Assembly (NCBI GenBank): GCA_963739395.1
Contig: CAVUAE010000002.1
Coordinates: 26,384-90,383 of the forward strand
Length of the DNA: 64,000 nucleotides
DNA from: an uncultured Chloroflexia bacterium
GTDB taxonomy: Bacteria > Chloroflexota > Dehalococcoidia > Dehalococcoidales > RBG-16-60-22
Reading direction: 5' to 3'
Shown: positions 1 through 20,657 of the stretch, in pieces
How positions within the stretch are numbered: the first letter of the stretch is position 1
How the letters are laid out: every line of letters starts with the position of its first letter
Made by a program: the position numbers and the translations under genes
Notes under the pieces: model-generated
Told to the model about the DNA's origin: nothing
Seen by the model: only the letters and a program-made list of their open reading frames with translations
Databases searched by the model: none

Positions 1-60
1 TTGGCCAAAGCGCTTGAGGTACATCCAAACGAAATAGACTACAATGATAGAGCTAAGTGA
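1..60 (+). CDS. 3' end of an upstream ORF entering from the window edge (partial, unidentified)
   Basis: Frame 1 is the only frame open from nt 1. It stops at TGA 58-60 and overlaps the ATG at 44 by 17 nt. The tail LAKALEVHPNEIDYNDRAK is too short to classify. Confidence 0.25.
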   Translation: MAKALEVHPNEIDYNDRAK

Positions 61-3000: not shown

Positions 3001-3187
3001 AATGGACAGCCTCAGTCAGAGCTTGAGAGAGCAAGTCAGCCAGTGGGTTTACGTCCAACGTGGCCTTCGCCTTTATGATGGCCCGATTGTGCGAATTTAC
3101 AAAGCACCTCGTCTAATTGATTGGATAAGAACTCAAGCGATGGACGACGCGGGAGACATCATCGGAGAGGCGCTAAGTAGCACATGA
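44..3187 (+). CDS. Large gamma-class N6-adenine DNA methyltransferase (type IIG/PglX-like architecture) with uncharacterised N- and C-terminal regions
   Basis: 1047-aa ORF. It has GAIYTPE (aa 314-320), the AdoMet motif I VLDPACGLGVF (aa 342-352) and catalytic motif IV NPPW (aa 462-465, nt 1427-1438). Motif I precedes motif IV, which is the gamma order. About 300 aa N-terminal and about 430 aa C-terminal carry no motif I recognise. Confidence 0.85.
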   Translation: MIELSDLLSKLSYDTSSHYHRVDAPSTLETAYIFRAAKNAGVSGVYMFETSPSTERQLLGARPAVYVAQCDTVEEARTIHRSLWNLGYAPFLIILLPNQVRIYTGFDYSEESERKGLLAEENDIKGLAGLLTDFNAYAIDAGLIWRSIHYTGIDQNQRVDKRLLNNLEQLGEALERGGLSANVAHALTGKYVYLNYLKSRGVLTDEWMEQQGVNPKDIFSTDANVASLRRLVEVLEKRFNGKVFPLDFDGEKSLLDKHVSWVASVFSGSQVVATAPQSVHQLCFPFRAYDFRYIPVETLSAIYEQFIGDRKEKGAIYTPEVLADYMLSEMESVKPLQRGMRVLDPACGLGVFLVLAYCRLIEKEILRLGLFGKLPAETLHDILTQSIYGVERERDACYVAEFSLILTLLHYVEPHDLASMEFKFPVLHNTQIFECDFFDMGSENTMVRFWQKGLKFDWITGNPPWIELKPIKEDETEEEKLEYKHARAWIENPANKREYPIGGKRTAEAFSWLVTNLLNQDGLVGLVLPATSLFNLESTRFRQSFFTKHEVIKMTNFANLRDVLFGKEKSGVLPAATIVYRPYAGAYTKSYLRHYGPLYINQISAARNKPWVITVNESEIQTISPSEAERGDMLTWKLALWGADRDKRALERIKYLFPMTLSDFCRTKGWGNNLPMQGAELRPQREEGTKWPLVRIKGQKLFNSKAFNKIRPHFRFSIPYSEAPILKELTEDAYVRSGKDALDLTTPAPHVLLSPSWQNFAIYSDDDFIALPRQMAIAAPKIHRDNEEYLRALTVYLSSSLVAYYLFFHVPGWGIFRQRKEVITTEVQKIPTPDLTKKQAKELATFHRELVERERSYKTNQGLKYSARGEDGELQADLDEKICELLGLPEDIALLASEFVGTRLLLDKPSKREEVTRSPTDKELLAYARQLKKELDDFTMPKAHHRVVITHSQNLIECLVEIMQGEAPIPTGECAVRKGDLTTAKIMDSLSQSLREQVSQWVYVQRGLRLYDGPIVRIYKAPRLIDWIRTQAMDDAGDIIGEALSST

Positions 3188-3846
3188 GCCTTAATCACCC
3201 AGTTGCAAACCGTCCAAGTGACAGATATTTCGGTGTCTACCGCAGCCAATTTAGACTGCATGCCCATCAGTTGATTGCCTGGGGACATAGTGACGCCCGC
3301 TATAAGATACAATCAAATGATGAAGACGAACCAAGCATCACTGGGTACATCACTGAAGCCATCAGGTCACGCCTCCGAACGAATAGCCCTCCATGGTGCG
3401 TGTATTATTGTGTTCGCGAGGATACTCCGATTGAGACGAATAGACGGTCAGGCAGGAACAGACTACGACCCGATATTATTATTGAGACGATTCTTGGGAG
3501 TCGTCCCGAGTATACCTTTGAAGCGAAGCGACTACGAAAAAAGGGGTATGGTGCGGATAAGTATATTAATTCAAAGGGGGTAGGACGCTTTGTAAGTGGG
3601 CAGTACGCGTTGAGATACGATGAAGCTGCCATGCTCGGCTATGTCCAGAGTGATTCGCTAGTTAATTGGCAGGAAATAATCAAGAACATGATTGCTCAAA
3701 ATGCAAAACAACTTTGCTTGAAAAGCTCTCAGAAGGACGACAAGGTCATTGACGATCTTCCCTTGGAATGGGTCAGTCAGCATGAGCGACCTAGGGTGGG
3801 TCGTCCCATTTGCATCTACCATATCCTCCTAGACTGTGTTGCATGA
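3184..3846 (+). CDS. Small PD-(D/E)xK-type nuclease candidate, translationally coupled to the methyltransferase
   Basis: 220-aa ORF whose ATG overlaps the upstream TGA (ATGA at 3184-3187). RPD97IIIE...E113AK115RL fits the PD...(D/E)xK pattern. No other domain recognised. Confidence 0.6.
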   Translation: MSLNHPVANRPSDRYFGVYRSQFRLHAHQLIAWGHSDARYKIQSNDEDEPSITGYITEAIRSRLRTNSPPWCVYYCVREDTPIETNRRSGRNRLRPDIIIETILGSRPEYTFEAKRLRKKGYGADKYINSKGVGRFVSGQYALRYDEAAMLGYVQSDSLVNWQEIIKNMIAQNAKQLCLKSSQKDDKVIDDLPLEWVSQHERPRVGRPICIYHILLDCVA

Positions 3847-4093
3847 TTGCTTACAGGCTGCCTGACATTGACTGTCGCAGCATCTTCGTCTTAGAGCTAC
3901 CCATGACAGATTCAGAGGTCACATTTAGCCAAATTGTACAGTACTGCCATAGTTTGATGTGTGACCTCCTTGCTAATGTTGTCTTGGTATACAGGTTCTC
4001 AGCGCCGCTCAGCAAAGTTAGGTGCTCTTCTGAGCCTAAACGTATGCAAAAAATTGGTTAGAGCCATAAATCCTCTGCTATACTAAATAGGAT

Positions 4094-5611
4094 ATGATAG
4101 ACAACTGGCACACTTTAAGCCCGGATACAGCCTTGGGAGAACTTAATTCCGAGCACTCCGGCCTAACTGAAGATGAAGCAAAGGAGCGGTTACTCCGCTA
4201 TGGCCACAATGAGTTAAAGGGTAAGAAAAAAACTCCCGTGGTACTGGTATTCCTAAAGCAGTTCCTCAGTCCGTTAATCTACGTTCTTATCGCCGCGGCG
4301 GTAGTTTCCTTAGTTGTCCAGCATTATATCGACGCCGCCGTGATACTGGGCGTGCTGCTGCTTAACGCCATCATTGGCTTTATACAGGAAGTGCGAGCTG
4401 AAAAGGCTATGGAGGCTTTGATTCAGATGGCAGCGCCTAAGGCAAAGGTCAGACGTGGCGGCATGGTGAAGCAAATTCTAGCCAAAGCCATAGTCCCCGG
4501 CGACATCATCCTTCTGGAGACCGGCGACAGGGTACCCGCTGACGCCCGATTGTTAGAGGTATCCAACCTGAAGATGAATGAGTCTACGCTTACCGGAGAA
4601 TCAATGCCGGTAGAGAAACATACCGAGGTGCTCGGGCATTCAGTACTCGTAGCCGATAGAAAGAACCTGGTTTACATGGGGACAAGCGTTAGCTACGGTC
4701 GGGCTACGGCAGTGGCAATGAGAACTGGCATGTCAACCGAACTGGGCAAAATCGCCACCGCGATTCAGGAGGTAAAACCGGAAGCGACACCCCTCCAGAA
4801 AAGCACAAGTAAGTTGAGTCGGTATCTCATTATTATTTTCCTGGTTGTCATCGGTATCCTAGTAGTTATCGGATTAGCTAAAGGGCTTGACCGTCTGGAG
4901 GTCTTCCTGCTGGCGGTGGCAGCTGCAGTTTCGGCTATACCAGAGGGGTTGCCGGCTGTCGTCACCGTCGTCCTGTCGCTGGGAATGCGGACCATGGCGC
5001 GGCACAACGCCATAATCCGCCGGCTGGTAGCTGTGGAGACGCTCGGGTCGGCCACGGTCATCTGCTCGGATAAAACCGGTACTTTAACCATGAATGAGAT
5101 GACGGTGCGGCGTATGTTTATTGACGGGCGGTGGATTGAGGTAACCGGTGAAGGCTACGAGCCTAGTGGGGAATTCCGCCAGGACGGGCAAAGATTCGAG
5201 CCGGAGAAGGATGAGGTACTGAGGTTGCACCTGAAAATAGGAGTCCTATGCAATGATGCCCTTTTGACCCTTGAAGGCGGGCGGTACAGCATTTACGGAG
5301 ACCCTACTGAAGGCGCTCTGGTAGTAGCTGCCGCCAAAGCAGGGATGGAAAAAGAGAAATTAGAGAAGAGTTCCCCTCGCCTTGATGAAATTCCATTTCA
5401 GAGCGAAAAGCAATACATGGCAACCCTTTACTATAAAGATGGTGAGGGTAGAGTAGTCTATGTGAAGGGCGCAACCGAGAGGCTATTATCATTCAGCAAA
5501 TATATGCTCACAGGGAACGGCATTGTTCCGCTAGGACAAGCTGAGGCCGAGCGTATCACGCAAGCCACTGTCTCTATGGCAAAAGACGCCATGCTTTGGT
5601 CGGAGGGGTAA
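4094..5611 (+). pseudogene. Cation-transporting P-type ATPase (P2/Ca2+-Mg2+ type), 3'-truncated
   Basis: Has N-terminal cation-ATPase features, TGES, PEGLP and the phosphorylation motif CSDKTGTLT. It stops after about 505 aa inside the N domain. The hinge motif GDGxND and the C-terminal TM helices are missing. The last residues (LWSEG) diverge immediately before the integrase gene. Confidence 0.85.
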
Positions 5612-5619
5612 GGTCATGG

Positions 5620-6303
5620 TTAGCCTTTCTCCCACAGCCGGTCGTACCAGTCGTGGAGCTCCCGGCCGGATACTTTCCTGTATTTGGCCGTGGTATTGAA
5701 ACTCTGGTGCCCAAGGTGCTCCTGCAGCATTCTTAAACCATCCCCCGAATCATCCACTTTTACAGCATTAACCGCGAAGGCATCCCTTAATTTGTGAGGG
5801 CTTACGTTATGAAGTTTTCCGGTTTCAGAATTAACCAGCTTGGGCAGCTTGGCCTTGGCCGCACACTCGGTGATTATCTGCCACGCGCGGTGACGGTTAA
5901 TGCCGAAGAGCAGTCGTTTACCGTCCTTAGTTACAGGACCACCGCGCTCAATATATTCCTTAAGTATTTTTAAAGAGTCTTTGTCGATAGGTAGCACACG
6001 CTGCCGACGGTGTTCTTTCTCCTGGGCAACAACATTTTCCACTTTCGACCCGCAGCCGGGGCAATAGATGCTGCTCTTACTTAACCGGGCGCTGCAAGCG
6101 GGGCAGGCAAGCTTCGTACGCAGCTTGAGGTGCTGAATGATGACGGTTCCTCTGGTCAGGTCAATGTCTTCTACTGTAATTCCCAGAGCCTCGGAAACAC
6201 GGCATCCTAGATGAGACAGCAGTCTGATGAGCAGACGGTCCCGTAGAGTAGTGGCAGCTTGTTCTAGTGTGAGGATTTCTTCCGGTTCAAGATAGGCTTT
6301 CAT
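5620..6303 (-). CDS. Tyrosine recombinase/integrase, catalytic-domain-only, with inserted Cys4 zinc ribbon
   Basis: 227 aa. Has GCRVSEAL (Arg I), HKLRDAF (H-x-x-R) and LGHQSFNTTAKY (His/Tyr nucleophile). CPACSARLSKSSIYCPGCGS is inserted between the beta strands. There is no N-terminal core-binding domain. Confidence 0.85.
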   Translation of the reverse strand: MKAYLEPEEILTLEQAATTLRDRLLIRLLSHLGCRVSEALGITVEDIDLTRGTVIIQHLKLRTKLACPACSARLSKSSIYCPGCGSKVENVVAQEKEHRRQRVLPIDKDSLKILKEYIERGGPVTKDGKRLLFGINRHRAWQIITECAAKAKLPKLVNSETGKLHNVSPHKLRDAFAVNAVKVDDSGDGLRMLQEHLGHQSFNTTAKYRKVSGRELHDWYDRLWEKG

Positions 6304-10453: not shown

Positions 10454-10518
10454 TATTGAGGTGCTTTTGGCTGGAATAGTATAATTTGTATAGTAAATCC
10501 GATTCAGGAGGCAACGCT

Positions 10519-11949
10519 ATGACCAAAGATGGAAATTTTATACGGGAAAAAGCCCGCGATACGAAAGTTATCCGCCAGTGCGACGTCGTCGTTGTGGGCG
10601 GCGGTCCGGGGGGTATAGGGGCGGCAGTTTCCGCCGCCAAGAATGGCGCCGATACCGTTCTTATCGAAAGATACGGCTATCTCGGCGGCATGGGTACTGG
10701 TGGACTGGTGACAATTATCCCCCAGCTTACCGATTATACAGGCAAACAGCAAATCGCCGGGATTACACAGGAATGGATTGACCGCTTGATTGCCCGCAAC
10801 GCCGTGGACATGCCGAAGAAAGAACACTGGGGCACACTGGACCCGGAACTCAATAGATATTATTTCGAGCGCAGCTTTTTCTATAGGCGTCTTGACCGGG
10901 TGGTTTATGCCGCTATCATCGACGCCGAAATCTCGAAAATTATTCTTAATGAGATGGTAGAAGAAGCCGGTATTAAAACTTACTGCCACGCCTGGGGCAC
11001 CGAGCCCATCATGGAAGGCAATCACTGTAAAGGCGTCATCATCGAAAGCAAGTCCGGACGCCAGGCTATCCTTGGCAAAGTCGTGATTGATTCTACCGGC
11101 GACGGCGACCTGTTCCCGTACGCCAATATCGATTGCGAAACCGACATTCCAGCGAACTTCCGTATCGCTAACCTCGCCGTCTGCTTCTGGATTGCCGGTG
11201 TCGACTATAAAAAGATAACCGAATTCCGCCAGAATAACATGAAGGGATTCATGGATTTAATGCGTCAAGCCCATGAATACGGTGGTCAGGGCGGTTTTAT
11301 GACCAGCAACCTGCCCGACCAGGAATCGGTGGTCTGGTTCCACAGCCGTTACCCCAACAAGAGCCAGATTGACGTTGAAGAACTGACCCGCGTTGAATTT
11401 CTGGGACATAAAATCGCCGGTAAAACCATTGAATTCTACCGTAAGAACGTACCGGGATTTGAAAAAGCCTTCCTCGTGCTTACCGACCCACAGCTTGGCA
11501 CTCGTTCCAGTCGCCGCATGGTCGGCGAATACTGGCTGACCGAAAAAGACCTTGCTAACAACCAGCCATTCGAAGACACTATCGCCATCTTCCCGGACCT
11601 CGACCGCGGGCAGGATTCTTTAGACCATCCCAATATGTATATCCCCTATCGCGCTTTATTGCCGAAGAACGTGGATAATTTCCTCGTTGCCTGCCGCGCT
11701 TTTTCCTCGGATAAGCACGTCCAGGACTACTTCAACCTAATTCCGCACTGCATCGCTTTCGGCGAAGCCGCCGGCACAGCCTCAGCACTGGCGCTCAAAG
11801 CCGGCGTAGGCGTAAAGAAGGTTGACATCAAGGCATTACAGAAACAGCTTGTCAAACAAGGAGTACCGCTGCCGGATGTTACTAAAAAGGTTGATTATAA
11901 ATATACCGGCCCCGCCTTAGTCGGTCCTTCTTTCACACCGCCGCACTAA
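10519..11949 (+). CDS. FAD-dependent oxidoreductase (FAD_oxidored/GIDA-like family), paralog 1
   Basis: Dinucleotide fold VVVVGGGPGGIGAAVSAA, and IDSTGDGD. Start moved to the ATG at 10519, preceded by AGGAGG; the ORF track begins at 10486. Confidence 0.8.
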   Translation: MTKDGNFIREKARDTKVIRQCDVVVVGGGPGGIGAAVSAAKNGADTVLIERYGYLGGMGTGGLVTIIPQLTDYTGKQQIAGITQEWIDRLIARNAVDMPKKEHWGTLDPELNRYYFERSFFYRRLDRVVYAAIIDAEISKIILNEMVEEAGIKTYCHAWGTEPIMEGNHCKGVIIESKSGRQAILGKVVIDSTGDGDLFPYANIDCETDIPANFRIANLAVCFWIAGVDYKKITEFRQNNMKGFMDLMRQAHEYGGQGGFMTSNLPDQESVVWFHSRYPNKSQIDVEELTRVEFLGHKIAGKTIEFYRKNVPGFEKAFLVLTDPQLGTRSSRRMVGEYWLTEKDLANNQPFEDTIAIFPDLDRGQDSLDHPNMYIPYRALLPKNVDNFLVACRAFSSDKHVQDYFNLIPHCIAFGEAAGTASALALKAGVGVKKVDIKALQKQLVKQGVPLPDVTKKVDYKYTGPALVGPSFTPPH

Positions 11950-12165: not shown

Positions 12166-12243
12166 GTCATTCTGAGCATAGCGAAGAATCCGTTGTCGTA
12201 TTAGTTAATGCGGATTCTTCGTCACTTCGTTCCTCAGAATGAC
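12166..12243. repeat. 78-bp imperfect palindrome of two GTCATTCTGAG units
   Basis: GTCATTCTGAGCATAGCGAAGAATCCG (12166-12192) faces CGGATTCTTCGTCACTTCGTTCCTCAGAATGAC (12211-12243). It creates the spurious ORF start at 12239. Confidence 0.8.
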
Positions 12244-12271
12244 TTTAAATATTGTGTTGTTGGAGGTCAAT

Positions 12272-13729
12272 ATGCCTGCAATAAAAACCGTTAGAGAGCC
12301 TGCCCGTGATATCAAGGTATGGCGGGAAGCTGATGTAGTGGTGGTGGGAGGGGGACCGGGTGGCGTTGCCTCGGCGATTAGCGCCGCCCGAAACGGTGCC
12401 AAGACGGTACTGATTGAAAGATACGGACACCTCGGTGGCATGGCGACGGGGGGTTTGGTAAATATTATCCCCAACTTAAGTGACATCAGCGGCAAGCAGC
12501 ACATTTACGGCCTGACCATGGAGCTTATCAACCGACTGGATAAACGAGGAGGCACTTCTTATACCCCGAAGAAAGACCGTGGCTCCGCCGCAAAAAAGGC
12601 GGTGGATTATTACCTTGACGCCAACTTGGGGTGGTTTTATGTGCGTAAAGACCACAACACCGGCGTCCAAAGGGTGCTTTATTCCGCCGTGGTCGATCCC
12701 GAAATACTTAAGGACGAACTGAACGATATGGTATTGGGGTCGGGGGCAGAGTTATTATTACATTCCTGGGGCACGCAGGTTATTATGGAAAACAACACCG
12801 TCAAGGGGGTCTTCTTCGAGAGCAAAAGCGGCAGGCAAGCTATCCTGGGCAAGGTCATCATCGACGCCACGGGCGACGGTGATATGTTCGTGGCGGCCGG
12901 CGCCGAATTCGATAACGAATGTGATAATAAGCGTCGTACCGCCTGGCTGGCATTCGTCTGGTGGATGACTAATGTCAACTTAAAGAAATACGATAAATTC
13001 AAGGCGTCACAACCGGAAAAATATAAGGAATTGATGCAGGCATTAGGCAAGCTGGGCGGCTATCCCTTTTTCTTTAAAGGCATATTAAAAAACCAGCCGA
13101 ACACCGTCTGGTACCACAGCATGCAGCCGCAGCCCCAGCGTACCGACGCTATGGATGTCGAACAACTAACGAAAATTGATATTCAAGCCAGAAAGCGAGC
13201 CATTATCACGCACGACTTCATGAAAAAATACGTGCCGGGCTTCGAAAAGTGCTTTATTATGCTGACCGCCCCGCAACTGGGCACTCAAGGCGGTCGGAGA
13301 ATCATCGGGGAATACACGTTAACCGAAAAAGACCTGGAGACGGACGAGGTCTTCGAGGACACGATTGCAGTCCTTGCCAATAACGACTACGATGAGATTT
13401 CAGCCAGGCACCCAACCCTTTGTATTCCCTACCGCTGCCTTGTGCCCAAGCGTGTGGATGGGCTACTGGTAGCGGGGCGGGCATTCTCTTCGGCGGATAC
13501 GATAAATGAGACCTTCAACATCATCCCCCACTGTATCGCTTACGGTCAGGCGGCAGGCACGGCGGCGGCTTTAGCTATTAAAGCCGGTGTACAGCCGCGT
13601 AAAGTGGATTATAAAGCGTTACGGGCCAATCTGGTTATGCAGGGTGTGAATTTGCCAAAAATCGAGAGGGTAGTGGCCTCTAAGACCACCAGTAAAGTCA
13701 AAACAGATTATTACCAGAAATATCACTAA
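12272..13729 (+). CDS. FAD-dependent oxidoreductase, paralog 2
   Basis: VVVVGGGPGGVASAISAA and IDATGDGD, collinear with paralog 1 throughout. Start moved to the ATG at 12272, preceded by GGAGG. Confidence 0.8.
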   Translation: MPAIKTVREPARDIKVWREADVVVVGGGPGGVASAISAARNGAKTVLIERYGHLGGMATGGLVNIIPNLSDISGKQHIYGLTMELINRLDKRGGTSYTPKKDRGSAAKKAVDYYLDANLGWFYVRKDHNTGVQRVLYSAVVDPEILKDELNDMVLGSGAELLLHSWGTQVIMENNTVKGVFFESKSGRQAILGKVIIDATGDGDMFVAAGAEFDNECDNKRRTAWLAFVWWMTNVNLKKYDKFKASQPEKYKELMQALGKLGGYPFFFKGILKNQPNTVWYHSMQPQPQRTDAMDVEQLTKIDIQARKRAIITHDFMKKYVPGFEKCFIMLTAPQLGTQGGRRIIGEYTLTEKDLETDEVFEDTIAVLANNDYDEISARHPTLCIPYRCLVPKRVDGLLVAGRAFSSADTINETFNIIPHCIAYGQAAGTAAALAIKAGVQPRKVDYKALRANLVMQGVNLPKIERVVASKTTSKVKTDYYQKYH

Positions 13730-13737
13730 AGTGGAGA

Positions 13738-14838
13738 TTATACTGCCTCTTTAAGCATCTTGTGGAATTTAGCCATCCAGAATGTGGATTCTACTTCCAG
13801 GTTTCTTCTCCGCGTTTCTTCTAGTCCCATGTGAACTCCAAGAACCCAGTACCCGTTTGTTTTTTCCTCGAGATAATCAGCAGGAAATATATACGTTCCT
13901 TTTTCCGTTCGGTAGCTTTCTAAGTGCTTCATGCTTTCCTTAAACCATGGATGTTGTCTGCCGGCATTAAAGTTAACAAATAAACTAATCATGTGAACTA
14001 CCGATTTATTCATATATTTTTTAACGGGAATTCCAGGATACCGGGGCACGTGTACACTCCAGCCCAAACTCCAGGTGCGACCAGTACCATCGCCCATTAC
14101 CCCATATCCCCACGGAAGTTTTTGATAATTTTCATTCAATATATACTGTATTATATTGTCCGCTTTAGTCTGTTCTTCTTTCGTACCGTATTCCGGTAGG
14201 TACGCCGCCCAGCCGACGATGTCATAAATGAGCGGCAAGTAACAGGCTCCGCCCGGGGTTAATTCCAGTTTTATTAAAGGCAGTTTGCGCAGGTATTTGT
14301 TGGGGATGTATATATCATAATCGCCTTTCCTGGTGAAATCATAGACCATGTTAAGGTGCTTTTTTAGTGTATTTCCAACAGCCGGTTCATCAACATAGCC
14401 GGCACGGGCGAGGAAATCTGCTAGCATTACCAGGCTGAATTTCATAAAAACATTAACAATAGGCTTTTCTGCATTTTCCGTCAGCCACTTTCTATACGGC
14501 TGCGTCCGCCGGTCCAGTTCGGATATACCTTTTTTCAAGCCGAAATCGGCCAGTTTCGTTAAAGAATTTTCCAGTCGTGTTGGTTGACTACCGTGGAGGT
14601 CCATTATCCCGGATTGCAGTACCCAGGGCGTTATATCAGTAGGTTCTTTGAGTAAAAAGACTGGAGGAACTAAATGTTCCAGCCATTTCTGCACTTGCCG
14701 GCTTTGCAGCATTTCTTCTTGTAAACGCTTGATGTCATACTTTTTGTCAAGCGTCATTAACTCGTTGGCCGTACGATAGCGGATGACCGGTCCGCCATTG
14801 TCCATTAACCATGTGAAGAGTTCTTTTTCATTCATCAT
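13738..14838 (-). CDS. Hypothetical soluble protein
   Basis: 366-aa ORF with GGAGG upstream. I recognise no motif and see no TM segment. Confidence 0.65.
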   Translation of the reverse strand: MMNEKELFTWLMDNGGPVIRYRTANELMTLDKKYDIKRLQEEMLQSRQVQKWLEHLVPPVFLLKEPTDITPWVLQSGIMDLHGSQPTRLENSLTKLADFGLKKGISELDRRTQPYRKWLTENAEKPIVNVFMKFSLVMLADFLARAGYVDEPAVGNTLKKHLNMVYDFTRKGDYDIYIPNKYLRKLPLIKLELTPGGACYLPLIYDIVGWAAYLPEYGTKEEQTKADNIIQYILNENYQKLPWGYGVMGDGTGRTWSLGWSVHVPRYPGIPVKKYMNKSVVHMISLFVNFNAGRQHPWFKESMKHLESYRTEKGTYIFPADYLEEKTNGYWVLGVHMGLEETRRRNLEVESTFWMAKFHKMLKEAV

Positions 14839-14979: not shown

Positions 14980-15603
14980 TTAAGTTGTAACGGTTTTAAG
15001 CGCTTTCTTTACATAGTCATAACCAAGGTCGAAGGCTTTGATGTTAATTTCCCCCACTTTGGCTTTAAAACGTGCCAAAATAGCTTCTTTAGCTGTTTCG
15101 TCTTTAACGGGCATCAGTCCCGTGCCGAATAAAGCCCCCAACATGACTACGTTAGCCGCCTGTAAGCTCCCCGCCTGTTTCGCCAGTCCGCTGGCATCTA
15201 GTGTAATGATACGGTCAGTTACTTTACGCAGCTTTTTGACGATTTCACCCTGCGTAGGATAGCCACTCTGGCCCAGATAAACAGTATAAGGCATAACGGT
15301 AGTGGTATTGAGAACGACCACGCTGTTTTTAGCGAGGTACTGGATATTCCTTAAGGCTTCCGATGGCTCGACGGCGATAAGGACATCACATTTGCCTTCC
15401 GGGGTCATCGGGGCAATTACATCGCCGCCCAATCTCAAGTTACTGAAAACCGAGCCACCCCGCTGCGCCATACCTAAAACCTCCGAGCCTTTGACCGGCA
15501 CGCCACCCCTGACCGCCGCATTACCAAGCAACTCGGATACTAAAACCACACCCTGTCCTCCCACCCCACATATTATGATGTTAATCTCGCTTTTCTTCGT
15601 CAT
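14980..15603 (-). CDS. iorB: Indolepyruvate:ferredoxin oxidoreductase beta subunit (2-oxoacid:Fd OR gamma-type domain)
   Basis: 207 aa. INIIICGVGGQGVVLVSELLG is typical. It lies immediately downstream of iorA, with a 1-nt gap. Confidence 0.85.
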   Translation of the reverse strand: MTKKSEINIIICGVGGQGVVLVSELLGNAAVRGGVPVKGSEVLGMAQRGGSVFSNLRLGGDVIAPMTPEGKCDVLIAVEPSEALRNIQYLAKNSVVVLNTTTVMPYTVYLGQSGYPTQGEIVKKLRKVTDRIITLDASGLAKQAGSLQAANVVMLGALFGTGLMPVKDETAKEAILARFKAKVGEINIKAFDLGYDYVKKALKTVTT

Positions 15604-15604
15604 G

Positions 15605-18600
15605 TTACTCTCCTGGTTTTATGGCATCGAATGGGCAGATCTGGGCGCAAACCCCACAGCCCGGACAACCGGCAGCATCTACCACGACCTTACCTTTATC
15701 GGTAATTAAAGCCGGGCAGCCCAGCAGATTGATACATATCTTGCAGTCGCACTGGAGGCAACGTCCGGCTTCTTTGACTGCCGCTTCTTTACTCAAACCT
15801 GTTTCCACTTCCTTAAAATTGGTTTTCCTCTTGTCGACCGAGAGTAAAGGCATAACCGAACGTGATTCTTGATTAATACCCCAGGTATCCACAATCAGCT
15901 GGCTTTCAAAAACGGCTTCGCCTTCACGTCCAACATTGAGTGGCTCGCCTTTGAAATACTTATCGATAGATATTGCGGCTTTACGTCCCGCGGCTAACGC
16001 CTGGATAACCGTAGCCGCCCCGGTAACCACGTCACCGCCAGCGAATACACCTTTTACATTAGTCTCCAGCGTCACGGGGTCGGTTTTAATATAGCCTTTT
16101 TCCACGGCTTTTGTCGCCGCGCCGGTCATGAATGCCAAGTCCGGCTCTTCCCCTACCGCGGCGATGATTAGTCTGGTCTCGATAACGAACTCCGAACCTT
16201 TGATGGGTACGGGACGGCGCCGACCGCTGGCATCGGGTTCGCCGAGTTCCATTTTTATACATTCTAGTCCCGCCACCTTGCCGCCTTTAACCACCACTTT
16301 ATTAGGACCGGATAGAAGTGTAAGCTTAACACCCTCACCTTCCGCCTGATTTACCTCTTCGGCGATGGCGGGCATTTCAGCGCGGGAACGGCGGTAAGCG
16401 ATGGTAACATCCTTAAAACCGAGACGTACGCAGGTACGGGCGCAGTCCACTGCCACATTCCCACCCCCTACCACCACGACCCTGTCTTCCGCTTTAATCT
16501 TCTCGCCGGTGTTAACTTTATACAAAAACTCCGTGCCGTCGATAACGCCGGAGGCATGCTCGTTTTCAATGCCGAGGCTGCGTCCCTTATGCGCGCCAGC
16601 AGCGATAAAGACAGCGTTATAATCCTTTTGCAAATCCTCAAGTTTTACGTCCTTGCCGACTCTAGTATTAAACTTTATTTCCACACCCAGCTTCTTAATA
16701 ATATCCGCTTCTTTGTCGAGAATATCGCGGGGAAGGCGGAACTCCGGAATCCCCACCGCCATCATGCCGCCCAGTTTAAAGTTCGCTTCAAGGATAGTTA
16801 CTTTATAGCCCATCTTGCGGAGGTCGTAAGCCGCCATCATGCCGGCTGGTCCGCCGCCGACGATAGCTACCTTTTCTTTCCTCTCCACGGGCATGGTGTA
16901 ATTATCGGTGTATTTGCCGAAGTCAGTGGCAGCTCGCTTTAAAGCATTGATGGCGATAGACTCTTCCACCTCGCTGCGTTTACACTTGGTTTCGCAGGGA
17001 TGGGTGCAAATCCTGCCAATAATAGCGGGGAAAGGAAGGGTTCGTTTAATCAAAGCTAAAGCCTCGTCGAGCTTGCCTTCTTTAATCAAGCCGACATAGC
17101 CTCGGATATCGATATGCAGTGGGCAGGTAGCCTGGCAATAAGGCGGACTACCCGCCAGGCATTTAGCCGGGTCGACGACATAAGGAACGATTTTTTCACC
17201 CGCCTTACGCTTTTCTCGTTGGTCGAGGATGTTACATAAGCGCCGGGCGACAATGACCGAAGGACCCTTGAACTTAATAGCTTTTTCCAGAAGGTCGATG
17301 AGTTTCGGCAGGTCGAAGGAATCGACGACTTCAACCATTTTTACACCGCTGGCTCTGGCGATGTCTTCAATCTTAATGTCATGAGCGGGGTCGCCGCTGG
17401 CGCCGGGGTGGGGCTGAAAGCCCGTCATGCCCGTAGTTGAGTTATCCAGCACGACCATGGTGATATTGGCTTTATTATAGACCGCGTTAATCATCGGGGG
17501 AATGCCGGAATGGAAAAAAGTAGAGTCACCAAGATGGGCGATTACCGGGACATCGATAACATGCGCCAGCCCATTGGCGATACCGAAACCGCCACCCATA
17601 CAAACCGCGACGTCATCCGCGTTAAGCGGGGCATTAGCGCCGAGGGCATAACAGCCGATATCGCTGGTCTTGACCGGTTCTTTGCCCGTCTCCTGCTGGT
17701 AGCGGCGCGCGGCGATGTTAATTGCATAAAGTGAAGCGCGGTGAGGACAGCCAGCGCACATGGTAGGAGGACGGAGGGGTAAAAGGGAAGACGTTTCTTC
17801 CCTAAGTTTGTCAATTGACGCGAAATCGATGGGGGGTTTAACGCCGGTAAGTTTGCTTAAAGCTTCGGCGACCTGCCGGACAGATAACTCGCCTGCCAGC
17901 GAAAGAACATCTTTACCATGGATTTTAACCGCGATGCCGGACGATTGGGCGATTACTTTAACGCCTTCCTCGACGAAAGGCTCAAGCTCTTCAACCACCA
18001 CCACTTCCGGCACGGATTTAAGGAACTGTTGGGTCAGTTTTTCGGGTAGCGGATATGGCGTGCCGATTTTTAGTATGGAAACCTGGTCTTCCAGCCCCAT
18101 CCACTTCACCGCTTCTAAAGCATAGCCGTAAGAAATACCGCAGGCGATAACACCTAATTTGGCGCCCTTCCTGGTGGTGATATGGTTATAAGGGAGAGTA
18201 TCAACAACCTTCTTGATTTTCTCCAGCCGCTGGATAACCAGTCGGCGGTTGACGCGGTAGTTAGCGGGTAAGCAGACGAGCTTGACAGGGTCTTTGACGA
18301 ACTTGCCCTGTCTTTTACCCGCTTCGATGCCGCCCAAAACGACATTGCTGCGGGCATGACCGATACGCGTTACTGACCGTAGCATAAACATCTGCCCGAA
18401 TTCCTCGGAGAGTCGGTAGGCGTCTACCATCATGTCCTTGGCTTCCTGGGCAGAGCAAGGTTCCAGCACCGGGATATAAGCCTGCCGGGCGAGATAGCGG
18501 TTATCCTGCTCGTTCTGGGAACTCCACTGACCAGGGTCGTCGGCGGAGATAAGCACCAAACCGCCGCGTGTGCCCATATAGCTCATCGTCATAATTGGGT

Positions 18601-18901
18601 CGTGGGCAACGTTCACGCCCACATGTTTCATAATCGCCAGGGCGCGTAAGCCGCTGATAGACGCCGCCATGGCGATTTCAAAAGCCACTTTTTCGTTTAT
18701 CGACCATTCGGCGTACATGCCGGTATTTTTCGAGTTATTCACCAAAGTCTCGGTGATTTCACTGGAGGGGGTGCCGGGATAAGCGGCAACCACCTGTACG
18801 CCAGCTTCGATAGCTCCACGGGCGATAGCTTCATTGCCCAACATAAACAGCGTAGCGCCAGGGGCATCGGAAGTTAGAGTTGCTTCAGCTACTACATTCA
18901 A
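15605..18901 (-). CDS. iorA: Indolepyruvate:ferredoxin oxidoreductase alpha subunit with an inserted GltD/NfnB-like NAD(P)H flavoprotein module
   Basis: 1098 aa. Aa 1-570 form the TPP enzyme (GDSTFFHSG, MCAGCPHR). Aa ~575-1045 carry CP...GRICTHPCETKC, VAIVGGGPAGMMAA and VVVVGGGNVAVDCA, as in the glutamate synthase small subunit. Aa 1048-1095 form the canonical IorA Fe-S tail CLQCDCKIC...CPGCGVCAQICP. Confidence 0.85.
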   Translation of the reverse strand: MNVVAEATLTSDAPGATLFMLGNEAIARGAIEAGVQVVAAYPGTPSSEITETLVNNSKNTGMYAEWSINEKVAFEIAMAASISGLRALAIMKHVGVNVAHDPIMTMSYMGTRGGLVLISADDPGQWSSQNEQDNRYLARQAYIPVLEPCSAQEAKDMMVDAYRLSEEFGQMFMLRSVTRIGHARSNVVLGGIEAGKRQGKFVKDPVKLVCLPANYRVNRRLVIQRLEKIKKVVDTLPYNHITTRKGAKLGVIACGISYGYALEAVKWMGLEDQVSILKIGTPYPLPEKLTQQFLKSVPEVVVVEELEPFVEEGVKVIAQSSGIAVKIHGKDVLSLAGELSVRQVAEALSKLTGVKPPIDFASIDKLREETSSLLPLRPPTMCAGCPHRASLYAINIAARRYQQETGKEPVKTSDIGCYALGANAPLNADDVAVCMGGGFGIANGLAHVIDVPVIAHLGDSTFFHSGIPPMINAVYNKANITMVVLDNSTTGMTGFQPHPGASGDPAHDIKIEDIARASGVKMVEVVDSFDLPKLIDLLEKAIKFKGPSVIVARRLCNILDQREKRKAGEKIVPYVVDPAKCLAGSPPYCQATCPLHIDIRGYVGLIKEGKLDEALALIKRTLPFPAIIGRICTHPCETKCKRSEVEESIAINALKRAATDFGKYTDNYTMPVERKEKVAIVGGGPAGMMAAYDLRKMGYKVTILEANFKLGGMMAVGIPEFRLPRDILDKEADIIKKLGVEIKFNTRVGKDVKLEDLQKDYNAVFIAAGAHKGRSLGIENEHASGVIDGTEFLYKVNTGEKIKAEDRVVVVGGGNVAVDCARTCVRLGFKDVTIAYRRSRAEMPAIAEEVNQAEGEGVKLTLLSGPNKVVVKGGKVAGLECIKMELGEPDASGRRRPVPIKGSEFVIETRLIIAAVGEEPDLAFMTGAATKAVEKGYIKTDPVTLETNVKGVFAGGDVVTGAATVIQALAAGRKAAISIDKYFKGEPLNVGREGEAVFESQLIVDTWGINQESRSVMPLLSVDKRKTNFKEVETGLSKEAAVKEAGRCLQCDCKICINLLGCPALITDKGKVVVDAAGCPGCGVCAQICPFDAIKPGE

Positions 18902-19020
18902 GGTAGTCCTCCTGACCGGAGCACGACTGTCTCCGGGGAAAAATTTATAGGAATTTTAAGGAAAATTTCGTGCTTCTCTAATTATATTTTACACATTTAC
19001 ACGTGTAGTTGGCAAACAAA

Positions 19021-19478: not shown

Positions 19479-20573
19479 TCACTTAAACATTATCACGTTG
19501 CGTATCACGTCGCCCTTTTCCGAAGATTCAATGGCTTCGTTGATTTTTTCCAACGGATAATGACTGGAAACAAGCTCATCCAGCTTGAGACGTTTCGTTT
19601 GATATAGTTCAATCAGGCGCGGGATATCGATACGTAAACGCACTGCCCCCATGGCGCTGCCGGTTAGCCTCTTGCCCGCCATAAAGTCCAGCGGCGTAAA
19701 ATCGGTCATTTTCTCGCCAAATCCATGCCCGATGATATTCGTCAATCCGTCCCGGGCGGACATCATAAAGCCCATGCGCAGTATTTCTATACCTGCCACA
19801 GCGACGATGACAAAGTCCGCCCCGCGACCGTAGGTAAGTTCATGCACCTTTTTAATAGGGTCTTTTTCTTGTTTAGCGTTAACCGTATACGTGGCGCCGA
19901 AGACTTTAGCATTCTCCAGCTTGCTGTCACGCACATCGACGGCAATGATGGGATAAGCCCCCACGAAAAGCGCCCCTTGTATCGCGTTTAAGCCGACTCC
20001 GCCGCAGCCAACGACGACAACGCTGCTGTTGGCTGTAACTTTAGCGCGGTATAATATCGCCCCGAACCCAGATATGACGCCGCAAGCAAGCAGGCAGGCT
20101 TTATCTTCCGGCATATCATTGGGCACTTTTACCAGGTTAACCTCCGGAATTACGGCGTATTCGGCAAAACCAGCTACCGCGCCAGCATATTGCGTCAGGC
20201 GCTGACCTTTCTTGTTGACAAACCTCCCTTTACCGCGGAGATAGAGTCGGTTAGTGGTGCACTGGCTGGAGAGTCCGATACGGCAATAATAACACTGCCC
20301 GCAGCCATCCGGGATGATACTGCCGATTACCTTATCGCCGGGTTTAACGTAACTAACTCCCTCGCCCACCTCTTCAACATACCCGCATATTTCATGTCCC
20401 GCGATAGCCGGCAAATCAATAGGACCATGCTCACCCCTCATGGCATGGATATCACTATGGCAGATAGCACAGGCAGCCATTTTTATTTTCACGTCCCCCT
20501 TGCCCACTGGGTCTAAAGTAACCTCCTCAATTACCATAGGACCACCAACCTTATAAATGATAGCCGCTTTCAT
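19479..20573 (-). CDS. Zinc-dependent alcohol dehydrogenase (MDR family)
   Basis: GHEICGYVEEVG, CGQCYYC, and GCGGVGLNAIQGA. Start moved to MKAAIIYK (ATG at 20573), preceded by AGGAGG. Confidence 0.85.
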   Translation of the reverse strand: MKAAIIYKVGGPMVIEEVTLDPVGKGDVKIKMAACAICHSDIHAMRGEHGPIDLPAIAGHEICGYVEEVGEGVSYVKPGDKVIGSIIPDGCGQCYYCRIGLSSQCTTNRLYLRGKGRFVNKKGQRLTQYAGAVAGFAEYAVIPEVNLVKVPNDMPEDKACLLACGVISGFGAILYRAKVTANSSVVVVGCGGVGLNAIQGALFVGAYPIIAVDVRDSKLENAKVFGATYTVNAKQEKDPIKKVHELTYGRGADFVIVAVAGIEILRMGFMMSARDGLTNIIGHGFGEKMTDFTPLDFMAGKRLTGSAMGAVRLRIDIPRLIELYQTKRLKLDELVSSHYPLEKINEAIESSEKGDVIRNVIMFK

Positions 20574-20657
20574 AATGCCTCCTTTAAGACGTTTATAAAA
20601 AACACTAATCAGTAGTGTATCTACCGTGACAGCTAATGTCAAACCCGATGTGATTAT

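What the first reader, a model, noticed from the sequence alone, without database searches (positions are those of the whole stretch)
15605..18901. IorA with a ~470-aa GltD/NfnB-like NAD(P)H-flavoprotein module inserted before its terminal ferredoxin domain
The single uninterrupted 1098-aa ORF reads as a TPP-dependent IorA (aa 1-570), then a module with two Cys clusters (CLAGSPPYCQATCP; GRICTHPCETKC). That module also carries an FAD fold (VAIVGGGPAGMMAA) and an NAD(P)H fold (VVVVGGGNVAVDCA), collinear with the glutamate synthase small subunit, NfnB and SudA. The canonical IorA C-terminal 2x[4Fe-4S] segment (CLQCDCKIC...CPGCGVCAQICP) follows. The insert maps to about nt 15767-17179. Canonical IorA proteins are roughly 600-650 aa, from my memory of archaeal enzymes. 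Inference: electrons from aryl-pyruvate oxidation could be passed directly to NAD(P)+ or bifurcated instead of to free ferredoxin. AOR, a Zn-ADH and iorB are nearby, consistent with an aromatic amino-acid, aldehyde and alcohol fermentation node.
Basis: partly seen in the sequence, partly recalled or inferred. Interest (0 to 1): 0.6.

Follow-up and report, generated by a model that had tools for sequence, protein, structure and literature searches.

The report
IOR fused to NADPH flavoprotein module
A Dehalococcoidales gene encodes an indolepyruvate-type 2-oxoacid oxidoreductase whose iron-sulfur exit domain is split by a built-in NADPH-flavoprotein module, so electrons from keto-acid oxidation can probably go straight to NADP+ instead of to free ferredoxin. 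The architecture is real and conserved in dozens of genomes, but I found no description of it and it is biochemically untested.

Summary
The 1098-aa ORF (15605-18901, minus strand) is real. It has an AGGAGG ribosome-binding site and a TTG start, and more than 115 full-length relatives. In 41 species-level Dehalococcoidales/Chloroflexota genomes both junctions lie in one reading frame, so it is not an assembly chimera.

Residues 1-581 are a bona fide IorA (TIGR03336, 731 bits, above the cutoff). Residues 582-1052 are an NfnB/GltD-type Fer4_20 + FAD + NADPH module. Its closest solved relatives are the NADPH-binding NfnA/StnC subunits of NfnABC/StnABC (48% identity to Csac NfnA). The last 46 residues are an IorA-type ferredoxin remainder.

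The module sits inside the ferredoxin domain, after its first Cys. It is also circularly permuted relative to NfnB/GltD: the RxxNFxEV...RCLxC segment follows the flavoprotein. Cysteine counts across homologues are compensatory, which implies four [4Fe-4S] clusters shared across both junctions.

The same module+ferredoxin cassette occurs elsewhere. It is a separate gene between iorA' and iorB in Asgard archaea, and it is fused between PorG and PorD in other Dehalococcoidales.

Best reading: a self-contained 2-oxoacid:NADP+ oxidoreductase (TPP, five clusters, FAD, NADP+). Bifurcation is unlikely. I rate it a new variant of a known kind; function is inferred only.

The parts
15605..18901 (-). Whole fused gene: IorA with an NfnB-like module inside its ferredoxin domain (1098 aa plus stop at 15605-15607)
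   Evidence: Single ORF. More than 115 full-length homologues. Both junctions in one frame in 41 genomes.
18908..18913 (-). Shine-Dalgarno AGGAGG, 6 nt upstream of the TTG start at 18901
   Evidence: Read directly from the sequence.
17186..18901 (-). IorA catalytic body, aa 1-572. It holds POR_N (aa 29-187, nt 18341-18817) and the TPP-binding domain (aa 414-551, nt 17249-17662) with the GDSTFFH...LDN motif. Invariant Cys 382, 385, 417 and 556 are assigned to the TPP-proximal [4Fe-4S].
   Evidence: Pfam. TIGR03336 at 731 bits, above the 650.9 cutoff. Invariant columns. Aligns to the separate iorA' gene of the split-gene versions over Q aa 5-565. The cluster assignment is by analogy with other OFORs and is an inference.
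17159..17185 (-). First strand and first Cys (PYVVDPAKC581) of the IorA-type ferredoxin domain, lying upstream of the insertion
   Evidence: Aligns to VPYxVDxxKC of canonical IorA. Cys bookkeeping.
16916..17158 (-). Fer4_20 iron-sulfur domain of the NfnB-like module, aa 582-662. Candidate ligands are C589, C593, C632, C636, C640 and K655.
   Evidence: Pfam PF14691. All these residues are invariant in 53 fusions. C593/C632/C636/K655 align to the A7-cluster ligands C108/C147/C151/K170 of Csac NfnA (PMC11829005).
15950..16873 (-). FAD/NADPH flavoprotein core, aa 677-984. The FAD fold is GGGPAG at 682-687, the NADPH fold is GGGNVAVDCA at 812-821, and Y836-R837-R838 follow.
   Evidence: Pfam Pyr_redox_2. 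PDB hits to NfnA/StnC/NfnB/GltD with E values from 1e-133 to 1e-66. Motifs invariant. Foldseek TM-score (target-normalised) about 0.8 to NfnB/NfnL.
15863..15949 (-). Linker of low model confidence, aa 985-1013
   Evidence: AF2 pLDDT below 50 over aa 998-1009.
15746..15862 (-). Relocated 'N-segment' of the NfnB/GltD fold, aa 1014-1052: RSVMPLLSVDKRKTNFKEVETGLSKEAAVKEAGRC1048LQC1051D
   Evidence: Aligns to NfnB (4ylf_B) residues 8-48 and NfnL (5jca_L) residues 10-57. It is also contiguous with the module in 9bov_A and 8oh5_C.
15608..15745 (-). Remainder of the IorA-type 2x[4Fe-4S] ferredoxin domain, aa 1053-1098: C1053, C1056, C1062-P, then C1079, C1082, C1085, C1089-P
   Evidence: MAFFT alignment with canonical IorA. 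Tail HMM scores 69.3 versus 30.4 bits. All Cys invariant.
14980..15603 (-). iorB (207 aa). Its start codon sits directly against the iorA stop codon (15605-15607).
   Evidence: Pfam POR. NCBIfam IorB models score 200-214 bits, just under their cutoffs. Directly downstream in 39 related loci.
19479..20642 (-). Zn-dependent alcohol dehydrogenase. It is a conserved upstream neighbour on the same strand, not shown to be functionally linked.
   Evidence: Pfam ADH_N/ADH_zinc_N. Syntenic in 21 related loci.

Best explanation
The gene, together with iorB, encodes a self-contained 2-oxoacid (probably arylpyruvate):NADP+ oxidoreductase.

The IorA body and IorB carry out the TPP- and CoA-dependent oxidative decarboxylation of the 2-oxoacid. 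The two electrons then leave one at a time along this proposed path:
1. The TPP-proximal [4Fe-4S], assigned to C382/C385/C417/C556.
2. The two clusters of the IorA-type ferredoxin domain.
3. The two clusters of the Fer4_20 domain of the NfnB-like module.
4. FAD, which collects both electrons and transfers a hydride to NADP+.

The ferredoxin domain is physically split by the module. C581 lies before the module and C1053-C1089 after it. The module's own first CxxC (C1048, C1051) has been moved to its C-terminal end. As a result both junctions meet at one cluster-binding knot, and the four clusters form a continuous wire.

Shown here: domain identities, invariance of all 15 Cys plus K655, the permuted order, compensatory Cys counts, conservation of the architecture, and pairing with iorB.

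Inferred: which Cys binds which cluster, the direction of electron flow, NADP(H) specificity, and the substrate.
For: -
- The module is 48% identical over 465 aa to Csac NfnA residues 102-569. It is structurally closest to NfnA of NfnABC and to StnC.
- In Csac NfnA the homologous FAD binds NADPH and sits at the end of a [4Fe-4S] chain. [quoted passage not shown] Its A7 cluster is liganded by C108, C147, C151 and K170 (PMC11829005). Those residues align to C593, C632, C636 and K655 here, all invariant in 53 fusions.
- GGGNVAVDCA and Y836-R837-R838 are invariant and are shared with the NADPH-binding NfnB and NfnA.
- Cys bookkeeping: the number of Cys just upstream of the module plus the number from RCLxC to the C-terminus equals 10 in all 115 group-A fusions (1+9). 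It also equals 10 in 16 of 21 50%-identity representatives: 0+10 in five, 1+9 in eight, 2+8 in three.
- Split-gene versions exist as iorA' / cassette / iorB in Asgard MAGs and one metagenome contig. A PorG-module-PorD fusion sits next to a fused PorAB gene in Dehalococcoidales. So the cassette recurs as the electron-exit subunit of OFORs.
- No NfnS-like or BfuBC-like partner is present among the ~46 window ORFs scanned.
- Thermodynamics, from established values: acyl-CoA+CO2/2-oxoacid is about -500 mV and NADP+/NADPH is -320 mV, so flow to NADP+ is downhill.
- Precedents for NAD(P)+-linked OFORs are the eukaryotic PNO fusion (PMC6732389) and phenylglyoxylate:NAD+ oxidoreductase (Hirsch et al. 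1998, cited in PMC5109826).
Against: - There is no biochemistry for any member, and all sequences come from uncultured MAGs.
- The cluster-ligand assignment rests on counting and homology.
- The ferredoxin-domain clusters may still be surface-exposed and able to reduce free ferredoxin.
- Passing -500 mV electrons to NADP+ wastes about 35 kJ/mol. A strict anaerobe might be expected to conserve that energy.
- NADP versus NAD specificity is inferred from motifs only.
- The substrate is unknown. The TIGR03336 match indicates family membership, not specificity.
Confidence: 0.6

Rival explanations
1. Dual-acceptor hub. The enzyme still reduces free ferredoxin through the exposed cluster of its split ferredoxin domain. 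The module then acts as a built-in ferredoxin:NADP+ oxidoreductase or valve, so the protein both oxidises 2-oxoacids and equilibrates the ferredoxin and NADPH pools.
For: The IorA-type ferredoxin tail is fully retained and under strong constraint. A ferredoxin-dependent AOR is encoded 6.4 kb away. NfnB/GltD-type modules transfer electrons reversibly between NADPH and cluster chains (PMC11829005).
Against: Nothing here shows a ferredoxin docking surface. In the fused topology the ferredoxin clusters are bracketed by the TPP domain and the module. This reading is not exclusive of the best explanation.
Confidence: 0.2
2. Flavin-based electron bifurcation or confurcation. As in NfnSL, the NfnB-like FAD splits or merges electron pairs between the low-potential cluster chain and a second, high-potential partner.
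For: The module is homologous to NfnB/NfnL, whose FAD is the bifurcating flavin in NfnSL. Two PF12831 flavoproteins of unknown role are conserved neighbours in 33 loci.
Against: - No NfnS-type (FAD plus [2Fe-2S]) or BfuBC-type gene is in the window.
- The closest relatives are the NfnA/StnC subunits. For Csac NfnA the structure paper places the FAD at the end of the electron-transfer chain, not at the bifurcation site (PMC11829005).
- The Lys-ligated proximal cluster is of the NfnA type, not the NfnSL type.
- The 2-oxoacid to NADP+ reaction is exergonic and needs no coupling.
Confidence: 0.07
3. Biosynthetic direction. The module feeds NADPH electrons into IOR for reductive carboxylation of arylacetyl-CoA to arylpyruvate, as a route to aromatic amino acids.
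For: OFORs are reversible in principle. From my own knowledge, IOR serves aryl-acid assimilation in methanogens.
Against: NADPH at -320 mV cannot drive a -500 mV couple without extra energy input, and no such coupling partner is present. No CoA ligase is adjacent.
Confidence: 0.05
4. Artefact: a chimeric assembly, or a lost stop codon that joins separate iorA and gltD-like genes.
For: Split-gene versions with a 4-nt overlap do exist in other lineages.
Against: More than 115 independent full-length sequences exist. In 41 genomes both junctions are in frame. The N-junction sequence VPYVVDPAKC is continuous with canonical IorA. GC content is uniform. All cofactor motifs are invariant.
Confidence: 0.01

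Closest known systems
Canonical indolepyruvate:ferredoxin oxidoreductase IorAB (Pyrococcus furiosus type; TIGR03336/TIGR03334)
   Same: It has the same TPP-binding alpha body, passing the equivalog cutoff, the same IorA-type C-terminal 2x[4Fe-4S] signature C-x2-C-x5-CPA...C-x2-C-x2-C-x3-CP, and the same small IorB partner directly downstream. The body is 65% identical to unfused Dehalococcoidia IorA.
   Different: A 471-aa FAD/NADPH iron-sulfur module is inserted after the first Cys of the ferredoxin domain. The predicted acceptor is therefore NADP+ rather than, or in addition to, free ferredoxin.
NfnA subunit of Bfu-type NfnABC (PDB 9bov, 9n5u) and StnC of StnABC (8oh5)
   Same: These are the best sequence and structure matches to the module, at 48% identity and E = 8e-133. 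The order is the same: Fer4_20, FAD, NADPH, then the RxxNFxEV..RCLxC segment. The Cys3-Lys ligand set of the FAD-proximal cluster is the same. The FAD works as an NADPH port at the end of a [4Fe-4S] chain (PMC11829005).
   Different: Those proteins carry an N-terminal [2Fe-2S] domain and a C-terminal Fdh/NuoG-like domain, and they dock to a bifurcating BfuBC core. Here the chain is wired to a TPP enzyme, no BfuBC genes are nearby, and electron flow is expected in the opposite direction, towards NADP+.
NfnB/NfnL of NfnSL, glutamate synthase small subunit GltD, SudA, and the DPD N-terminal half
   Same: The fold is the same (target-normalised TM-score about 0.8), as are the Fer4_20 + Pyr_redox_2 domains and the NADPH-type second Rossmann motif.
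   Different: The module is circularly permuted. Their N-terminal helices and first CxxC lie after the flavoprotein here. No small-subunit partner is present. The fourth ligand of the proximal cluster is probably Lys rather than the Glu or Gln of NfnSL and DPD (the latter from my own knowledge).
Pyruvate:NADP+ oxidoreductase (PNO) of Euglena, Cryptosporidium and other eukaryotes
   Same: The design logic is the same. An OFOR is fused to a flavoprotein that turns one-electron cluster output into hydride transfer to NADP+, bypassing ferredoxin (PMC6732389).
   Different: In PNO the flavoprotein is an unrelated FMN/FAD cytochrome-P450-reductase-type domain appended to the C-terminus of a PFOR. 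Here an NfnB-type module is inserted within the ferredoxin domain of an IOR.
Phenylglyoxylate:NAD+ oxidoreductase (PadEFGHI) of Azoarcus/Aromatoleum
   Same: It is a bacterial OFOR-type enzyme of aromatic acid metabolism that reduces a pyridine nucleotide (Hirsch et al. 1998, as cited in PMC5109826). From my own knowledge it carries FAD on an extra subunit.
   Different: It is a five-subunit complex rather than a fusion. It uses NAD+ and a different substrate.

Membership tests
IorA (indolepyruvate ferredoxin oxidoreductase alpha, TIGR03336 equivalog) | Scores above the curated whole-protein cutoff of the family HMM | tested here: met
   731 bits against a cutoff of 650.9; aa 18-594 cover profile positions 3-565 of 595.
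IorA (indolepyruvate ferredoxin oxidoreductase alpha, TIGR03336 equivalog) | TPP-binding domain with the GD(S/G)...N motif and Cys for the proximal [4Fe-4S] | tested here: met
   TPP_enzyme_C at aa 414-551. G458, D459...D486, N487 and C382, C385, C417, C556 are invariant. The ligand role is inferred.
IorA (indolepyruvate ferredoxin oxidoreductase alpha, TIGR03336 equivalog) | Contiguous C-terminal 2x[4Fe-4S] ferredoxin domain | tested here: inconclusive
   All eight Cys positions of the IorA-type motif are present, and the tail is IorA-like. The domain is interrupted by 471 aa after its first Cys.
IorA (indolepyruvate ferredoxin oxidoreductase alpha, TIGR03336 equivalog) | Adjacent IorB partner | tested here: met
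   iorB at 14980-15603 has the POR domain. IorB models score 200-214 bits, just under their cutoffs. The gene is conserved downstream in 39 loci.
IorA (indolepyruvate ferredoxin oxidoreductase alpha, TIGR03336 equivalog) | Arylpyruvate substrate and ferredoxin as acceptor | not testable with these tools
   Needs enzymology.
NfnB / GltD / SudA (Fer4_20 + Pyr_redox_2 NADPH flavoproteins) | Fer4_20 and FAD/NAD(P)H Rossmann domains above the Pfam cutoffs | tested here: met
   PF14691 scores 88 bits and PF07992 scores 108 bits. PDB E values are 1e-103 to NfnB and 1e-66 to GltD.
NfnB / GltD / SudA (Fer4_20 + Pyr_redox_2 NADPH flavoproteins) | Collinear order: N-terminal helices + RCLxC, then Fer4_20, then FAD, then NADPH | tested here: not met
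   NfnB residues 8-48 and NfnL residues 10-57 align to aa ~1017-1063, after the flavoprotein. G584 replaces the second Cys at the N-junction.
NfnB / GltD / SudA (Fer4_20 + Pyr_redox_2 NADPH flavoproteins) | Dedicated partner subunit (NfnA/S, GltB or SudB) encoded alongside | tested here: not met
   No such domain was found among the ~46 window ORFs scanned.
NF009410 / PRK12771 'NAD(P)-binding protein' (module + C-terminal dicluster ferredoxin) | Scores above the curated cutoff over the full length | tested here: not met
   513.1 bits against a cutoff of 516. aa 583-1095 cover profile positions 44-561 of 566 in one stretch. This is a near miss. The order is the same, but the C-terminal tail is IorA-type.
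NfnA of Bfu-type NfnABC / StnC | NfnL-like domain with the Cys3-Lys proximal cluster and an NADPH site | tested here: met
   48% identity. C593/C632/C636/K655 align to C108/C147/C151/K170 (PMC11829005) and are invariant.
NfnA of Bfu-type NfnABC / StnC | N-terminal [2Fe-2S] domain, Fdh/NuoG-like domain and BfuB/BfuC partners | tested here: not met
   The ORF has no molybdopterin or NuoG domains, and the window has no NuoF/NuoE-like genes.
Pyruvate:NADP+ oxidoreductase (PNO) | PFOR fused to a C-terminal FMN/FAD NADPH-cytochrome-P450-reductase domain | tested here: not met
   No flavodoxin or FAD_binding_1 domains are present. The flavoprotein is Pyr_redox_2 type and lies internal to the protein. 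The resemblance is functional only.

The most novel reading that the evidence does not exclude
The NfnB-like module together with the split ferredoxin is a mobile 'NADP(H) port' cassette for 2-oxoacid oxidoreductases. It has been plugged in repeatedly:
- into at least three IorA lineages, each with a different junction position;
- between PorG and PorD of a POR/VOR-type enzyme;
- as a separate subunit between iorA' and iorB in Asgard archaea.

On this reading the cassette defines an unrecognised, widespread class of NADP+-dependent OFORs. These proteins are currently annotated as 'ferredoxin oxidoreductases', so ferredoxin and NADPH budgets inferred from subsurface metagenomes would be systematically wrong for these organisms.
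Probability: 0.4. Interest if true: 0.65.

Novelty: new variant of a known kind. Interest (0 to 1): 0.5.

Why it matters
OFORs are textbook ferredoxin-reducing enzymes, and metagenomic metabolic reconstructions count them as sources of low-potential electrons. If this architecture delivers electrons to NADP+, amino-acid and keto-acid fermentation models would change for Dehalococcoidales in peat, aquifers and sediments, and for some Asgard archaea. Reduced ferredoxin would drop, NADPH would be made directly, and dependence on Nfn, Rnf or hydrogenases would be lower.

Structurally, the protein is a clean natural example of a domain insertion within a ferredoxin fold combined with a circular permutation, predicted to yield a wire of five clusters plus one flavin. 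It is also a compact two-gene candidate for NADPH regeneration from 2-oxoacids in biocatalysis. The hypothesis can be tested directly with one expression construct.

Tried and rejected
1. Chimera or frameshift: rejected.

2. Simple end-to-end fusion of a ferredoxin-less IorA with a complete PRK12771-type protein. I considered this because NF009410 aligns to aa 583-1095 in one stretch. The tail HMM test and the C-x5-CP 'LLGCPA' signature show the tail is IorA-type. However, the split-gene versions show the ferredoxin travels with the module, so 'insertion' versus 'cassette swap' cannot be settled.

3. Glu637 as the fourth ligand of the proximal cluster, NfnSL-style. I replaced this with K655 after mapping onto the Csac NfnA ligands (PMC11829005).

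4. A single origin of the fusion is not supported. The fused and unfused IorA bodies interleave, the modules fall into at least three groups, and group B has its own unfused relatives at 63% identity. These are only NJ and identity analyses; the first attempt timed out.

5. Partner search for NfnS or BfuBC in the window found nothing.

6. Measuring cluster distances was not possible, because AF2 coordinates are not exposed. The afdb50 fold library was unavailable.

7. Six literature searches aimed at the fusion and one paper check found no description of it. The searchable library is incomplete, so this is not proof of absence.

8. The link to AOR could not be assessed, because it lies beyond the 6-kb flanks in most loci.

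Full report
OBSERVATION

The minus-strand ORF 15605-18901 is uninterrupted and encodes 1098 aa. It begins at a TTG, 6 nt downstream of an AGGAGG.

Pfam places POR_N at aa 29-187, TPP_enzyme_C at 414-551, Fer4_20 at 579-662, Pyr_redox_2 at 677-972 and a Fer4 motif at 1072-1095. NCBIfam scores the protein above the curated equivalog cutoff for IorA (TIGR03336, 731 bits against 650.9). It scores just under the cutoff of NF009410/PRK12771, a family of NfnB-like flavoproteins with a C-terminal dicluster ferredoxin (513.1 bits against 516).

IS IT REAL?

A 100%-identical protein lies on a 320-kb contig. More than 115 clusters of about 1097 aa share 61-93% identity, and all are annotated merely as 'IorA'. 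One cluster member is named as a Dehalococcoidales MAG protein.

A scan of one genome per GTDB species returned 64 loci. In 41 of them both junctions are contiguous in one reading frame. Those 41 records are titled Dehalococcoidales, Dehalococcoidaceae, Dehalococcoidia or Chloroflexi/-ia/-ota. A truncated fusion fragment that spans the N-junction also turned up in a 'Deltaproteobacteria' MAG (L040). GC content is uniform across the gene. A chimera or frameshift is therefore excluded.

WHERE EXACTLY IS THE INSERT?

Other Dehalococcoidia encode ordinary IorA proteins of 632-642 aa whose body is up to 65% identical to this one. Their C-terminus reads ...VPYxVDxxKC-x2/3-C-x2-C-x5-CPAI...C-x2-C-x2-C-x3-CP.

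In the fusion the same string is broken after the first Cys. VPYVVDPAKC581 is followed by the module, and the motif resumes at C1053-KI-C1056-INLLG-C1062-PALI...C1079..C1082..C1085...C1089-P.

A profile built from canonical IorA tails scores the fusion's tail at 69.3 bits. A profile built from tails of non-IorA cassettes scores it at 30.4 bits. So the insert is aa 582-1052 (nt 15746-17158), and it lies inside the ferredoxin domain rather than in front of it.

THE MODULE IS PERMUTED

PDB sequence searches gave these best matches:
- NfnA of the Bfu-type NfnABC from Caldicellulosiruptor (9bov_A), at 8e-133 and 48% identity over 465 aa
- NfnA from Thermococcus sibiricus (9n5u_A)
- StnC (8oh5_C)
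- NfnB (4ylf_B), NfnL (5jca_L), GltD and DPD

An AF2 model (pLDDT 82, pTM 0.61) gives the same ranking with Foldseek.

The residue-level alignments show that the N-terminal segment of NfnB (residues 8-48) and of NfnL (10-57) aligns to aa ~1017-1063 of the fusion. That segment contains RxxNFxEV...EAxRCLQC, and here it lies after the flavoprotein. At the N-junction the corresponding CxxC has lost its second Cys (KC581-LA-G584). NfnA and StnC have the same 'segment-after' order.

CLUSTER BOOKKEEPING

In 53 aligned fusions, 15 Cys of the module and tail are invariant, together with K655. The 15 Cys are C581, 589, 593, 632, 636, 640, 1048, 1051, 1053, 1056, 1062, 1079, 1082, 1085 and 1089. Also invariant are C382, C385, C417 and C556 in the TPP domain, the FAD and NADPH glycine motifs, and Y836-R837-R838.

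In Csac NfnA the FAD-proximal cluster A7 is bound by C108, C147, C151 and K170 (PMC11829005). These align to C593, C632, C636 and K655. Fifteen Cys plus one Lys is exactly the ligand count for four [4Fe-4S] clusters.

Across homologues, two counts are compensatory. One is the number of Cys just upstream of the module. The other is the number from RCLxC to the C-terminus.
- All 115 group-A fusions have 1+9.
- Among 21 50%-identity representatives with a simple C-terminus, five have 0+10, eight have 1+9 and three have 2+8.
- Three of the 21 have one extra Cys, and two have a different C-terminus.

The simplest reading is that RC1048-LQ-C1051 completes the distal Fer4_20 cluster, and that C581 joins C1053/C1056 and C1089 in a ferredoxin cluster. 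Both junctions would then meet at one knot.

THE CASSETTE ELSEWHERE

A search of 1.84 billion representatives with aa 575-1098 shows that module plus ferredoxin is a widely reused unit. It occurs:
- stand-alone, at about 540-585 aa
- fused to DHOD-like, NuoF-like and MvhD domains
- fused to a PorG gamma subunit (P0160)
- fused to IorA, in six 50%-identity clusters

P0160 comes from Dehalococcoidales MAGs. It is followed directly by a fused PorA-PorB gene.

The 'stand-alone' cassettes P0227 (Asgard Jordarchaeia/Freyarchaeota MAGs) and P0173 are encoded between a 609-610-aa ferredoxin-less iorA' and iorB, with a 4-nt overlap in L066. iorA' aligns to aa 5-565 of the window protein, and the cassette aligns to aa 576/584-1098. 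The window gene is therefore the fused form of a three-gene arrangement that exists in Archaea.

Fused IorAs fall into at least three groups with different junction positions (1+9, 2+8, 0+10) and different module affinities. Their IorA bodies interleave with unfused ones. Group B has its own unfused relatives at 63% identity. This indicates repeated gain, loss, fusion or fission.

CONTEXT

- iorB abuts the stop codon and is conserved downstream in 39 loci.
- A Zn-ADH lies upstream on the same strand in 21 loci.
- A SnoaL-like gene lies between the ADH and iorA on the opposite strand, in 18 loci.
- Two PF12831 flavoprotein genes are conserved in 33 loci.
- The AOR gene is 6.4 kb away, beyond four genes (three of them on the opposite strand), and its linkage could not be assessed.
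- No NfnS-like or BfuBC-like gene was found among the ~46 window ORFs scanned.

MECHANISM

The best-supported model is a 2-oxoacid:NADP+ oxidoreductase. Electrons would pass from TPP to the proximal cluster, through two ferredoxin-domain clusters and two Fer4_20 clusters, to FAD and then to NADP+. The reaction is downhill (about -500 mV to -320 mV, textbook values).

The homologous FAD in NfnABC is a plain NADPH port at the end of a cluster chain, not a bifurcation site (PMC11829005). Still possible are a residual or parallel ferredoxin outlet (0.2), bifurcation with an unknown partner (0.07) and a reductive role (0.05).

COMPARISON AND NOVELTY

NAD(P)+-linked OFORs are known. Examples are the eukaryotic PNO fusion (PMC6732389) and the five-subunit phenylglyoxylate:NAD+ oxidoreductase (cited in PMC5109826). 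The idea is therefore not new.

What appears new is this particular solution:
- an NfnB-type, circularly permuted module inserted within the OFOR ferredoxin domain
- its recurrence in IOR and POR-type enzymes and in split-gene form in Asgard archaea
- its prevalence in Dehalococcoidales

Six targeted full-text searches found no description of it.

Verdict: a real feature, and a new variant of a known kind. Function is inferred but directly testable. Interest is moderate.

Noticed in passing
L065:2554-6958 (JGI metagenome 3300035696; identical protein in Dehalococcoidales MAGs): A second OFOR class uses the same trick. A 755-aa protein combines PorG (gamma), the NfnB-like module and PorD (delta ferredoxin). 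It is followed directly by a 707-aa fused PorA-PorB, with LarA-like and Ldh_2 genes next to them.
   Followed up: partly
L066:3175-7260, L067:1363-5448, L068:1-2595 (Asgard Jordarchaeia MAGs); L069:3158-7282: A three-gene split version of the window gene: a ferredoxin-less iorA' (609-610 aa), then the module+ferredoxin cassette (539-546 aa), then iorB. There is a 4-nt overlap between the first two genes in L066. The cassette is 44% identical to aa 576/584-1098 of the window protein.
   Followed up: yes
window 13738-14838 (-): A 366-aa ORF between iorB and the FAD_oxidored pair has no Pfam match and no homologue in any of the 64 related loci. Its GC content is lower (0.41-0.44 against 0.50-0.56). 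It looks like a lineage-specific insertion.
   Followed up: partly
window 10486-11949 (+) and 12239-13729 (+): Two tandem paralogous PF12831 'FAD dependent oxidoreductase' genes (487 and 496 aa) are conserved next to the fused iorAB in 33 related loci. Their function is unknown, and any relation to the IOR is untested.
   Followed up: no
window 44-6303: A possible mobile or defence patch. It holds a 1047-aa Eco57I/MmeI-type RM methylase-like ORF (44-3187). Next comes a P-type ATPase ORF of only 505 aa, apparently truncated (4094-5611). Last is a phage-integrase-family ORF (5620-6303, minus strand).
   Followed up: no
L007 and L058 (contigs CAVSFE010000004.1 and CAVSFE010000002.1, MAG MFD04408.bin.1.182): One MAG carries two paralogous copies of the fused iorA, 81% and 84% identical to the window protein.
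   Followed up: no
window 54113-54928 (-): A 271-aa protein combines an N-terminal 4Fe-4S dicluster ferredoxin domain with a nitroreductase-family domain.
   Followed up: no
L059, L060, L062 (Saccharibacteria and Staskawiczbacteria MAGs): These IorA homologues are only 541-568 aa long and match only aa 20-577 of the query. They seem to lack the C-terminal ferredoxin domain altogether. I did not check whether a cassette or ferredoxin gene is adjacent.
   Followed up: no
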